NCBI RefSeq assembly: GCF_013167455.1
Contig: NZ_CP038328.1
DNA: 64,000 nt
Strand: one strand, 5' to 3'
DNA from: Escherichia coli O157:H7
Lineage (GTDB): Bacteria > Pseudomonadota > Gammaproteobacteria > Enterobacterales > Enterobacteriaceae
Positions 50,401 to 53,400 of this stretch are shown here, in pieces. Every line of letters begins with the position of its first letter. Within the stretch, counting starts at the first letter, position 1. Position numbers: made by a program.

Positions 50401-53400
50401 CTTTAGCAACGCTTGTTGCCGCAACGCTGACGTTGTTGCTCGGGCGTAAGTTGGTCCATTCCGTCTCCTTTTTGAAGAAATACACCATACCGGAACCTGT
50501 TGCGGGTGGTTTGTTGGTGGCGCTGGCGCTACTAGTACTGAAAAAAAGCATGGGCTGGGAAGTCAACTTTGATATGTCCCTGCGCGATCCGTTAATGCTG
50601 GCTTTCTTCGCCACCATTGGCCTGAACGCCAACATTGCCAGTTTGCGTGCCGGTGGGCGTGTGGTTGGCATCTTCTTGATTGTGGTTGTTGGTCTGTTGG
50701 TGATGCAAAATGCCATTGGCATTGGTATGGCTAGCCTGTTAGGGCTTGATCCGCTGATGGGGCTGTTGGCCGGTTCTATTACGCTTTCCGGCGGTCACGG
50801 TACGGGCGCTGCGTGGAGTAAATTGTTCATTGAACGTTATGGCTTCACCAATGCGACGGAAGTGGCGATGGCCTGTGCAACGTTCGGTCTGGTGCTGGGC
50901 GGCTTGATTGGCGGTCCGGTGGCGCGCTATCTGGTGAAACACTCCACCACGCCGAACGGTATTCCGGATGACCAGGAAGTCCCGACGGCGTTTGAAAAGC
51001 CGGATGTGGGCCGCATGATCACCTCGCTGGTGCTGATTGAAACTATCGCGCTGATTGCTATCTGCCTGACGGTGGGGAAAATTGTTGCGCAACTTTTGGC
51101 TGGCACTGCTTTTGAACTGCCGACCTTCGTCTGTGTACTGTTTGTTGGCGTGATTCTGAGCAACGGTCTGTCAATGATGGGCTTTTACCGCGTCTTTGAG
51201 CGTGCGGTATCCGTGCTGGGTAACGTAAGCCTGTCGTTGTTCCTGGCGATGGCGCTGATGGGGCTGAAACTGTGGGAGCTGGCTTCGCTGGCGCTGCCGA
51301 TGCTGGCGATTCTGGTGGTACAGACCATCTTCATGGCGTTGTATGCCATCTTCGTTACCTGGCGCATGATGGGCAAAAACTACGATGCGGCAGTGCTGGC
51401 TGCGGGTCACTGTGGTTTTGGCCTCGGTGCAACGCCAACGGCAATCGCCAACATGCAGGCGATCACTGAACGCTTTGGCCCGTCGCACATGGCGTTTTTG
51501 GTGGTGCCGATGGTCGGTGCGTTCTTTATCGATATCGTCAATGCGCTGGTGATTAAGCTGTATTTAATGTTGCCGATTTTTGCCGGTTAAAAATGAAAAA
51601 GCGTCGGAAGGAACCGGAAACGCTACGTGAACACTGTCGCCATATTTTTGGTGATGAGCCGCCAGTGCTCTGTGTATGGGAAACGGAATTTGATTACGCA
51701 GATGCCGAACTCAAGGCGCTGGCGGCTAAAGAGTGGCAGCAGATCAGCGAATGGGATTTGAGTGCTTACTATGTACTCAATCTCGTTTATAACGAACCGA
51801 TGCAAATAGAGTTGTTTCGCTATCTGTTTCCGCTCTGCCTGGCGCAATGGCATGAAACCGTTTTAGCTGGCGGTTATGGTGATCACTTCGAAGAATCCTT
51901 AATGAAGGCATTGTGTCGGCCCTATCTCTGGCAGGAGATGATGAATGCTTCCCAACGCCAGCAGGTACGGCAATTTTTACTGGACACCGCGTTGCAGCGT
52001 ATGGATAACGAGCGTGGTTTCAATAACGTTCTTTGCTGGCTGGCGGTGTTCAATACTCTGGGTGGGGCCGCGCCGTTAATTCGTTCTCTCTGGTCGCGCT
52101 GGTGGGCGCTGGATACGCCAGGAAAAGCGGTGTGTGCTATTCAGTATGCCGCGCATCTAATTTATCCCATAGAAGCCAATCCGTTATGGTCGCAAGAATG
52201 GATAGGCTGGGGGCATCCATTAGGCCATAAAGATGGCTGGTCCTCTGATAATCGCGCTTTTCTTCGCCAAATGTTAACACCTGAAATGATTGTGGCTGGC
52301 GTACAGGCAGCGGCTGAAATTCTGCGTGGTGAACCGGAAGGCGCAATGGCGGCGCGAATTGCACAGGATGCGTATGAGGCAATGGATATCCTCACTATCC
52401 AGATTGAAGATTTACTGCGTGACTTGTCTTGTGATGAGTCTGGTCATGCGTTGGAGTAACGTTCCGTCTCCGGCATCCAGCGTTCTATCAGGGCTTTTGC
52501 TTGTTGTGGGTAACGTTCGTGAATATGTCGCGCCAGGCGCTGAACTTCCGGGATCATCGCCTGATCGCGCAGTAAATCCGCCACTTTAAACTCAGCATTA
52601 CCCGTCTGACGCGTACCTAACAGTTCACCCGGTCCGCGAATCTCTAAGTCTTTCTGTGCAATCACAAAACCGTCGTTGCTGTCGCGCAGCACTTGCAGCC
52701 GAATTTGCGCGGTTTTGGAGAGCGGCGTTTTGTAGAGCAGCACGCAGTGAGAAGCCACCGCACCACGACCTACACGCCCGCGAAGCTGGTGTAACTGCGC
52801 CAGACCCAGACGCTCAGGGTTTTCGATAATCATCAGGCTGGCGTTAGGCACATCAACACCGACTTCAATAACGGTAGTGGCAACTAGCAGATGTAGCTCA
52901 CCTTGTTTAAACGACGCCATCACCGCCTGTTTCTCGGCTGGTTTCATCCGCCCGTGTACCAGGCCAACATTCAATTCTGGTAGCGCCAGTTTCAACTCTT
53001 CCCAGGTAGCTTCCGCCGCCTGCGCTTCCAGTAACTCTGACTCTTCAATCAACGTACAAACCCAGTACGCCTGACGACCTTCAGTTATGCAGGCGTGGCG
53101 CACGCGGTCAATGATGTCGGTACGGCGGGTATCAGGAATAGCGACCGTAGTCACTGGCGTGCGGCCTGGCGGCAGCTCATCTATCACCGAGGTATCGAGA
53201 TCGGCATACGCCGTCATTGCCAGCGTGCGGGGGATCGGCGTGGCGGTCATGATCAACTGATGCGGATGGAAGCCTTGCTGCTGGCCTTTCTCCCATAACG
53301 CCAGACGCTGATGCACGCCAAAGCGATGTTGTTCGTCGATAATCACCAGCGCCAGACCGTTAAACTGCACCTGTTCCTGGAAGATGGCGTGCGTACCAAC

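What the first reader, a model, noticed from the sequence alone, without database searches (positions are those of the whole stretch)
51593..52459. Unplaced 288-aa ORF between gltS and recG
A long, stop-free, protein-like frame starts 3 bp after the gltS stop and runs into the recG 3' end. From memory, gltS and recG are convergent in K-12 and I do not recall an annotated gene between them, but I cannot confirm the K-12 spacing. It may be a conserved but poorly annotated gene or a strain-specific segment.
Basis: partly seen in the sequence, partly recalled or inferred. Interest (0 to 1): 0.4.

Follow-up and report, generated by a model that had tools for sequence, protein, structure and literature searches.

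The report
Strain-variable uncharacterised gene beside recG
The open reading frame is a real protein-coding gene, annotated only as "hypothetical protein" (Ybl159), that about a third of E. coli strains carry between gltS and recG and K-12 lacks; its function is unknown and no curated protein family describes it.

Summary
An ATG-started, 288-codon ORF at 51593-52459 (+) begins 2 nt after the gltS stop. It overlaps the convergent recG 3' end by 16 nt.

It is a real gene:
- It is 100% identical to WP_000747329.1 ("hypothetical protein"; UniProt name Ybl159) of O157:H7 EDL933 and E. coli B REL606.
- Against the Salmonella orthologue, pN is 0.20 and pS 0.71, which indicates purifying selection.
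- Orthologues sit at the same recG-abutting site in five other enterobacterial lineages.
- 442 clusters of distant homologues are found.

It is strain-variable. The gltS|recG site has three alleles among 5,426 complete E. coli genomes:
- this gene: 1,911 genomes;
- a K-12-type 168-nt spacer holding a REP-like insert: 1,869 genomes;
- a 33-nt terminator hairpin: 1,639 genomes.

It is not on phages, plasmids or mobile elements.

The function is unknown. There is no match in Pfam, NCBIfam, PADLOC, PHROGs or PDB sequences. A confident AlphaFold model (pLDDT 88) is an all-helical repeat protein with only weak, generic HEAT/ARM-like fold matches.

My best guess, at low confidence, is a non-catalytic binding or adaptor protein with a conflict- or nucleic-acid-repair-related role. 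The only contextual lead is tight linkage to RlaP/RNA-ligase/R2K genes in distant relatives.

This is an ordinary, already-annotated accessory gene of modest interest.

The parts
51593..52459 (+). Protein-coding gene (Ybl159 / WP_000747329.1). It encodes 288 aa, 33.2 kDa, pI 4.9, 13 Trp and no transmembrane segment, and the predicted fold is an all-alpha repeat.
   Evidence: ORF. Identical annotated CDS in EDL933 and REL606. Homologues. Purifying selection. AlphaFold2 model with pLDDT 87.9. Composition.
51588..51595 (+). Stop-start junction TAA-AA-ATG between gltS and the gene. There is no Shine-Dalgarno sequence and no terminator between them, so co-transcription and translational coupling are inferred.
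   Evidence: Sequence. The same juxtaposition occurs in Salmonella (TAAAGATG) and in L005 (TAATG). Where the gene does not follow gltS (L011, L012, L014) it has its own GGGAGG Shine-Dalgarno sequence. No convincing terminator.
52444..52459 (.). 16-nt overlap of the convergent 3' ends. The gene's tail ...GHALE* is read antisense to recG's final codons ...SNA*. This stretch is also the right-hand edge of the variable segment.
   Evidence: K-12 encodes the same SNA* with different synonymous codons (TCG AAT GCG TAA against TCC AAC GCA TGA).
50385..51590 (+). gltS (sodium/glutamate symporter), the upstream gene on the same strand and the probable source of transcription.
52444..54525 (-). recG (ATP-dependent DNA helicase), the convergent neighbour and last gene of the spoT-trmH-recG run.
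52448..53850 (.). Zone of raised nucleotide divergence next to the variable site. It differs from K-12 at up to 13 of 200 nt, decaying to about 0 by 53850.

Best explanation
SHOWN.
- 51593-52459 is a genuine, translated-type gene. It belongs to an uncharacterised, single-domain family of about 290-aa proteins (UniProt name Ybl159) that has no Pfam or NCBIfam model.
- It is an old resident of the site just past the recG 3' end in Enterobacteriaceae. It occurs there in E. coli, Salmonella, Superficieibacter, Intestinirhabdus, Enterobacter sp. kpr-6 and one unnamed relative.
- It has been lost repeatedly. In E. coli it is now one of three roughly equally frequent alleles at this site. The others are a 33-nt terminator hairpin and the same hairpin split by a REP-like insert, as in K-12.

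INFERRED for expression. In E. coli and Salmonella the gene is transcribed from the gltS promoter. It is translated by termination-reinitiation at TAA-AA-ATG.

INFERRED for function, at low confidence (about 0.25-0.3). The product is a soluble, acidic, Trp-rich alpha-helical repeat protein. It probably acts by binding a partner (protein or RNA) rather than by catalysis, in a conflict- or nucleic-acid-damage-related role. That role could be as an antidote/immunity-like binder or as an adaptor of repair enzymes. It is dispensable in the laboratory, since K-12 lacks it.
For: Real gene:
- An identical CDS is annotated in EDL933 and REL606.
- Thirty-three close homologues were found and 442 clusters of distant ones.
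- Against Salmonella, pN is 0.199 and pS 0.708, compared with 0.035/0.626 for recG and 0.041/0.560 for gltS.
- Within E. coli two alleles differ at 11 synonymous and 9 nonsynonymous codons, plus a TAA/TAG change in the stop codon.
- Orthologues that do not follow gltS have a GGGAGG Shine-Dalgarno sequence. Those that follow gltS have a stop-start juxtaposition.

Old resident with repeated loss:
- The same recG-abutting position is kept even though the upstream gene changes between gltS, xanP and glpX.
- Pairwise identities of the protein and of RecG correlate (Spearman 0.64).
- There are no flanking repeats, and no mobile-element genes are annotated beside it in E. coli.
- It is absent from phages and viral contigs, and the three 'plasmid' hits are E. 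coli records, the two annotated ones next to recG or carrying the ORF split in two.
- Allele counts are 1,911, 1,869 and 1,639.
- The recG flanks of the three alleles differ by 5.7-7.3%.

Binder rather than enzyme:
- The AlphaFold2 model is confident (pLDDT 87.9, pTM 0.87) with 14 helices.
- Conserved residues are mostly aromatic or hydrophobic.

Conflict or repair flavour:
- Protein evolution is about 5-6 times faster than in the flanking genes.
- Two distant lineages show tight same-strand linkage. L032 reads gene-RlaP-R2K ATP-grasp-RlaP with gaps of 1-33 nt, and L010 reads gene-RNA ligase beside two RlaP genes.
- The Cupriavidus copy lies in an island with McrBC, DUF6869 and DUF6714.
- Other neighbours include TIR and ORF6N domains and an integrase.
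Against: - No functional annotation could be transferred from any library. Pfam was searched with 63 members. NCBIfam, PADLOC and PHROGs also gave nothing.
- No neighbour is conserved across the family as a whole.
- The enterobacterial copies have no toxin, RlaP or ligase gene beside them.
- The RlaP linkage comes from two to four probably related, planctomycete-like lineages.
- GC3 is 0.50, against 0.62-0.65 in the flanking genes. This would also fit low expression or a foreign origin.
- I found no expression, proteomic or phenotypic data.
- Raised diversity in the recG 3' half is also seen between two strains that both carry the gene. It therefore need not reflect selection on presence or absence.
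Confidence: 0.6

Rival explanations
1. Orphan immunity (antidote) protein. It neutralises an incoming polymorphic toxin, such as a nuclease delivered by contact-dependent inhibition, type VI secretion or a colicin-type system, by tight binding. Frequency-dependent selection keeps it polymorphic.
For: - It is a solo gene with no conserved partner.
- It shows a presence/absence polymorphism at about 35% frequency with deep flanking haplotypes.
- Its protein sequence evolves fast yet under constraint.
- It is an acidic helical-repeat protein.
- The Cupriavidus copy sits among small DUF genes next to McrBC.
Against: - No toxin gene is adjacent in any locus examined.
- No Pfam family, immunity-protein families included, matches any of 63 members.
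- At 288 aa it is large for an immunity protein.
- It lies between core genes rather than in an rhs, cdi or type VI cluster.
Confidence: 0.2
2. Accessory partner of the GltS glutamate symporter, for example a cytoplasmic regulator or assembly factor, expressed stoichiometrically through translational coupling.
For: It lies 2 nt after the gltS stop with no Shine-Dalgarno sequence and no terminator in E. coli, Salmonella and L005.
Against: - Intestinirhabdus, Enterobacter kpr-6 and Superficieibacter keep the gene next to recG without gltS and give it its own Shine-Dalgarno sequence.
- Two thirds of E. coli genomes have gltS without it.
- Distant homologues are not near gltS.
Confidence: 0.08
3. 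Recently acquired foreign islet specific to certain E. coli lineages, gained horizontally rather than inherited.
For: - GC is lower (0.50 against 0.54-0.57) and GC3 is lower (0.50 against 0.62-0.65) than in the flanking genes.
- It is absent from K-12.
- Its distribution across phyla is patchy.
Against: - The insertion site is the same in six enterobacterial lineages, with divergence that tracks RecG divergence.
- There are no repeats, integrase, tRNA or mobile-element context.
- It is not found in phages, viral contigs or genuine plasmids.
- The short allele keeps AAGCGGCGG at the position of the gene's AAGCGTCGG (weak evidence, p about 0.02).
Confidence: 0.1
4. A decaying or functionless ORF that persists by chance.
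For: - It is dispensable in K-12 and in most strains.
- Truncated variants exist in sequence databases, in clusters of 157-219 aa.
- No function or literature was found.
Against: - pN/pS is about 0.28 (dN/dS about 0.1) over a saturated synonymous distance to Salmonella.
- The full-length frame and motifs are conserved across Proteobacteria and Planctomycetes.
- 1,872 of 1,917 matching E. coli genomes are at least 99% identical, and the gene is annotated as an intact CDS in all rows shown.
Confidence: 0.04

Closest known systems
WP_000747329.1 / UniProt 'Ybl159' (J7QXD5_ECOLX), hypothetical protein of E. coli O157:H7 EDL933 (EDL933_RS33845) and E. coli B REL606 (ECB_RS25620)
   Same: The sequence is 100% identical and lies at the same position between gltS and recG.
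   Different: Nothing differs: this is the same gene. No function is attached to the name, and no paper in the searchable library mentions it.
Salmonella enterica 'putative cytoplasmic protein' / hypothetical protein (P0003, P0004), with orthologues in Superficieibacter, Intestinirhabdus and Enterobacter sp. kpr-6
   Same: They share 49-71% identity over the full length and the same recG-abutting site.
   Different: The upstream gene differs between gltS, xanP and glpX. They lack the 5-residue C-terminal extension that overlaps recG in E. coli. All are uncharacterised.
Alpha-solenoid repeat proteins, including HEAT/ARM-type and MIF4G domains (for example ZYG11B, Nup188, importin-beta, UPF2 and eIF4G MIF4G domains)
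   Different: - Sequence identity is only 4-13%.
- Z never reaches 8.
- No Pfam HEAT, Arm or MIF4G match is found.
RlaP / RNA-ligase 'RNA repair' gene clusters (PF10127; Burroughs and Aravind, as cited in PMC12776372)
   Same: Distant family members (about 35% identity to the E. coli protein) head tight clusters. These hold RlaP nucleotidyltransferases with either an RNA ligase or an R2K ATP-grasp enzyme.
   Different: The E. coli gene has no RlaP, ligase or ATP-grasp neighbour. The linkage is seen in only a few related lineages, and no published description of this component was found.
DUF1822 family
   Same: One AFDB protein named 'DUF1822 family protein' aligns with TM about 0.8 (Foldseek E 8e-7).
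   Different: Identity is 20%. No family member matches the DUF1822 Pfam model. DUF1822 is itself uncharacterised.

Membership tests
Ybl159-type uncharacterised family (no Pfam or NCBIfam model) | Full-length alignment of about 280-310 aa carrying the motifs VWExxFD, LQPxLFxYLFPxCL and WxxWW...PGxA | tested here: met
   Alignments A1-A3. The profile search gave 442 clusters at E of 1e-3 or better, nearly all single-domain and 280-310 aa.
HEAT/ARM repeat proteins | Match to HEAT or Arm sequence profiles | tested here: not met
   No Pfam hit for the protein or for 63 relatives.
HEAT/ARM repeat proteins | Alpha-solenoid fold with significant structural similarity | tested here: inconclusive
Polymorphic-toxin immunity proteins | Gene lies immediately downstream of, or clustered with, a toxin gene or toxin C-terminal domain | tested here: not met
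   No toxin-like neighbour in E. coli, Salmonella or other loci.
Polymorphic-toxin immunity proteins | Membership of a described immunity-protein family | tested here: not met
   No Pfam match at all.
Polymorphic-toxin immunity proteins | Binds and neutralises a cognate toxin | not testable with these tools
   This needs competition or co-expression assays.
Known anti-phage defence systems | Match to a PADLOC model | tested here: not met
   No hit for the protein. Ten distant members gave only two weak, unrelated hits (E 0.0036 to a type II restriction-enzyme model and E 0.28 to UzuA).
Mobile-element or prophage cargo | Flanking direct repeats, an integrase or transposase, or presence on phages or plasmids | tested here: not met
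   Only short chance repeats. No phage or viral-contig hits. The three plasmid-collection hits are E. coli records, the two annotated ones next to recG or carrying the ORF split in two.
gltS operon member | Same strand, minimal gap and no intervening terminator | tested here: met
   TAA-AA-ATG junction, and no convincing terminator between the genes.
gltS operon member | Demonstrated co-transcription and a functional link with GltS | not testable with these tools
   No transcriptome data were available. Linkage to gltS is not conserved in other genera.
RlaP-associated RNA-repair module | Adjacent RlaP nucleotidyltransferase and/or RNA ligase | tested here: not met
   Absent around the E. coli gene. 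Present only for distant relatives L010 and L032, with fragments in L062 and L063.

The most novel reading that the evidence does not exclude
The gene is the enterobacterial representative of a wholly uncharacterised alpha-solenoid family with no Pfam model. On this reading the family works as a binding or adaptor component of nucleic-acid damage and conflict systems. That would explain the operonic link with RlaP nucleotidyltransferases, RNA ligase and R2K ATP-grasp enzymes in planctomycete-like bacteria. In E. coli it would be held as one of three ancient alleles at the gltS|recG site by balancing (frequency-dependent) selection, which would also explain the hyper-diverse recG 3' flank.
Probability: 0.15. 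Interest if true: 0.55.

Novelty: already known. Interest (0 to 1): 0.27.

Why it matters
As it stands, this is a routine accessory "hypothetical protein". It explains a difference between K-12 and the O157:H7 and B strains at a well-known locus. It carries three modest points of value.

1. The widely used laboratory and production strains BL21 and REL606, and the pathogen O157:H7, express-or-not a 33-kDa protein that nobody has characterised and that no curated family describes.
2. The gltS|recG junction is a clean three-allele polymorphism (35%, 34% and 30% of genomes) flanked by an unusually diverse stretch of recG. It could serve as a marker, or as a test case for old structural polymorphisms in E. 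coli.
3. The family offers a possible new component of RlaP/RNA-ligase modules, a lead that is cheap to test.

Tried and rejected
- Curated sequence libraries gave nothing usable. This covers Pfam on the protein, on 63 relatives and on neighbours, and NCBIfam, PADLOC and PHROGs.
- PDB sequence searches with two profiles gave nothing below E = 0.08.
- Three fold searches found only generic solenoids or uncharacterised proteins.
- Literature searches found nothing relevant. I tried ybl159, my guesses at old locus tags, WP_000747329, gltS+recG+O157, and DUF6869/DUF6714. The old O157 locus tags were guesses from memory and may simply be wrong.
- Mobile origin is rejected: there are no phage or viral hits, no genuine plasmid hits and no flanking repeats.
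- A spurious ORF is rejected on substitution pattern and homologues.
- A conserved operon partner across the family was sought in 28 loci by all-against-all BLAST of the three genes on either side. Four of these loci yielded no neighbours because the gene was not recovered by the script. None was found beyond near-duplicate loci, one divergent upstream gene in Cupriavidus-like loci, and the RlaP linkage.
- The idea that the short allele is a deletion remnant of the gene has only weak support: a 9-nt match at the same position with p about 0.02, and no whole-spacer similarity above shuffles.
- The first genome-collection scan, with the broad alignment A3, failed for lack of a conserved stretch and was rerun with A2.
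- Several context look-ups returned contigs too short to be informative.
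Full report
**1. The observation**

The gltS stop (TAA, 51588-51590) is followed by AA and then the ATG. recG lies on the minus strand (52444-54525) and ends ...ERYSNA*. The two convergent genes therefore overlap by 16 nt, and the ORF's last residues (GHALE*) are read antisense to recG's last codons. A 288-codon stop-free frame outside any other gene is not a chance event.

**2. Is it in K-12, and how common is it?**

K-12 MG1655 has convergent gltS and recG separated by 168 nt with no annotated gene. BLAST of the window against K-12 breaks exactly after the gltS stop and resumes inside the last four codons of recG.

The ORF is 100% identical to a CDS annotated "hypothetical protein" (WP_000747329.1) in O157:H7 EDL933 and in E. 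coli B REL606. UniProt and UniRef call it Ybl159.

Among 5,426 complete E. coli genomes the site has three alleles:

| Allele | Genomes |
|---|---|
| The gene | 1,911 |
| K-12-type 168-nt spacer | 1,869 |
| 33-nt spacer (as in UTI89) | 1,639 |

These account for 5,419 genomes. The gene is always chromosomal and single-copy.

The 33-nt spacer is an 11-bp GC hairpin followed by a T-run (-19.9 kcal/mol, z = -3.7). The K-12 spacer is that hairpin split by an insert of about 135 nt that looks like a REP element. That identification is from my reading of the sequence, not a formal test. The gene-bearing allele has no comparable structure at its junction with recG.

**3. It is a real gene**

- The close search returned 33 homologues with 37-96% identity. 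A profile search of 1.84 billion representatives returned 442 clusters at E of 1e-3 or better and 112 at 1e-30 or better. Almost all are single-domain proteins of 280-310 aa.
- Against the Salmonella orthologue, pN is 0.199 and pS 0.708. The same comparison gives 0.035/0.626 for recG and 0.041/0.560 for gltS. The gene is under purifying selection but changes amino acids about 5-6 times faster than its neighbours.
- Two E. coli alleles differ at 11 synonymous and 9 nonsynonymous codons, plus a TAA/TAG change in the stop codon.
- Translation signals behave as expected for a real gene. Where it follows gltS (E. coli, Salmonella, L005) the stop and start are juxtaposed (TAAAAATG, TAAAGATG, TAATG) and there is no Shine-Dalgarno sequence. 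Where it does not (two Superficieibacter species, Enterobacter sp. kpr-6) it has a GGGAGG Shine-Dalgarno sequence at the right distance.

**4. Origin**

In every enterobacterial lineage recovered, the gene abuts the recG 3' end in convergent orientation, while the upstream neighbour varies:

| Arrangement | Lineages |
|---|---|
| gltS-gene-recG | E. coli, Salmonella, L005 |
| xanP-gene-recG | Intestinirhabdus, Enterobacter kpr-6 |
| glpX-gene-recG | Superficieibacter |

Pairwise identities of the protein track those of RecG (Spearman 0.64). There are no flanking repeats, and no mobile-element genes are annotated beside it in E. coli. There are no phage or viral-contig hits. The three hits in the plasmid collection are all E. 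coli records: one lies next to recG, one is a 4.8-Mb record with no listed features under the match, and one carries the ORF split in two.

The species-representative genome scan returned neither the E. coli nor the Salmonella representative. Salmonella orthologues nonetheless exist. I infer that Salmonella is also polymorphic for the gene.

The simplest reading is an old resident gene that has been lost repeatedly. Lower GC3 (0.50 against 0.62-0.65) leaves some room for horizontal transfer. A 9-nt match between the short allele and the gene's 5' end is only weakly suggestive of a deletion remnant (p about 0.02).

**5. Flanking diversity**

Divergence between this window and K-12 peaks next to the variable site on the recG side, at 13 differences per 200 nt. 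It decays to about zero by 53850, and the gltS side shows 3 or fewer per 200 nt.

In the first 600 nt of recG beyond the junction, the three allele types differ pairwise by 5.7-7.3%. Two gene-bearing strains also differ by 4.8% there. The hotspot is therefore real, but it is not simply a footprint of presence versus absence.

**6. What the protein is**

It is 33.2 kDa with pI 4.9. It has 13 Trp residues (4.5%) and no hydrophobic segment.

- No match was found in Pfam (the protein, and each of 63 relatives), NCBIfam, PADLOC or PHROGs.
- No match was found to PDB sequences.
- The AlphaFold2 model is confident (pLDDT 87.9, pTM 0.87) and consists of 14 helices.
- Foldseek against AFDB50 finds only family members and uncharacterised proteins, plus one so-called DUF1822 protein at 20% identity.
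- Conserved positions are mostly aromatic or hydrophobic, with a few polar ones (D34, Q71, N220) and no recognisable catalytic motif.

A binding or scaffold role is the most economical inference, but it remains an inference.

**7. Genomic context outside enterics**

Contexts differ from lineage to lineage:

- Leminorella has gapA-gene-yeaD-like, named from my reading of the translations.
- A Zoogloeaceae genome from a metagenome has ssb-aspartyl protease-gene-secA.
- Cupriavidus has an island with McrBC, DUF6869 and DUF6714.

An all-against-all comparison of the three genes on either side was set up for 28 loci. Four of them yielded no neighbours because the gene was not recovered by the script. 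It found no shared partner, with two exceptions. One is a divergent upstream gene in Cupriavidus-like loci. The other is a link to RlaP nucleotidyltransferases:

- L032 reads gene-RlaP-R2K ATP-grasp-RlaP on one strand, with gaps of 1-33 nt.
- L010 reads gene-RNA ligase followed by two RlaP genes.
- Fragments in L062 and L063 also show RlaP beside the gene.

The proteins in these loci are 50-63% identical to one another, and the loci range from 52 to 68% GC. RlaP genes are known for sitting in RNA-repair operons (PMC12776372). Other neighbours include TIR and ORF6N domains and an integrase. This gives a conflict or repair flavour to parts of the family. It does not transfer directly to the E. 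coli gene, which has no such neighbours.

**8. Mechanism, committed**

Shown: this is a real, constrained, chromosomal accessory gene.

Inferred with fair confidence: it is transcribed with gltS and translated by coupling.

Inferred with low confidence (about 0.25-0.3): it is a non-catalytic helical-repeat binder acting in a conflict- or nucleic-acid-damage-related role.

The rival explanations are:

| Rival | Confidence |
|---|---|
| Orphan immunity protein | 0.2 |
| GltS accessory factor | 0.08 |
| Recent foreign islet | 0.1 |
| Decaying ORF | 0.04 |

**9. Verdict**

The gene is already annotated in about 1,900 complete genomes, so it is not new. What remains open is its function and the reason for the three-allele polymorphism. 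Interest is modest.

Noticed in passing
window 52448-53850 (recG 3' half): This stretch is a diversity hotspot. Pairwise nucleotide divergence among the O157, K-12 and UTI89 haplotypes is 5.7-7.3%, and 4.8% between two strains that both carry the gene. The recG 5' half shows about 0.3% and gltS 1.5% or less. The cause is unknown; old haplotypes or repeated import are both possible.
   Followed up: partly
window 53451-53705 (+), antisense to recG: There is a strong but sub-threshold Rfam match to Ysr141, Yersinia sRNA 141 (160.5 bits against a gathering score of 196, E 1.5e-45). It lies on the same strand as gltS and the ORF. It probably reflects recG coding conservation, but it hints that antisense transcription across recG has been recorded in Yersinia.
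   Followed up: no
K-12 locus L002 3293-3460, compared with UTI89 locus L007 601-633: The K-12 168-nt gltS-recG spacer is the 33-nt terminator hairpin of the short allele, split by an insert of about 135 nt that looks like a REP element. Together with the gene-bearing allele this makes a clean three-allele site: 1,911, 1,869 and 1,639 of 5,426 genomes.
   Followed up: yes
protein database cluster holding window 51593-52456: The 90%-identity protein clustering puts this protein in a cluster whose representative is a 401-aa GltS. I presume a fused or read-through gene call bridges the two. The exact protein therefore did not appear among the hits of the first homology search.
   Followed up: partly
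L032 7437-10908 and L010 6001-9736: Distant family members head tight clusters that hold RlaP nucleotidyltransferases together with an R2K ATP-grasp enzyme or an RNA ligase. This may be an undescribed component of RNA-repair or conflict modules.
   Followed up: partly
L016 7176-10520 (Cupriavidus campinensis), with L053, L056 and L057: In Cupriavidus-like loci the gene is paired with a divergently transcribed, family-less gene of 158-220 aa. In L016/L053 DUF6869 and DUF6714 genes follow it, with an McrBC system beside them in L016.
   Followed up: partly
window 52444-52455, compared with K-12: The last three recG codons and the stop encode the same S-N-A-stop in both alleles, but every codon differs (TCC AAC GCA TGA against TCG AAT GCG TAA). 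The allele boundary therefore lies inside recG, and the protein sequence has been preserved across it.
   Followed up: yes
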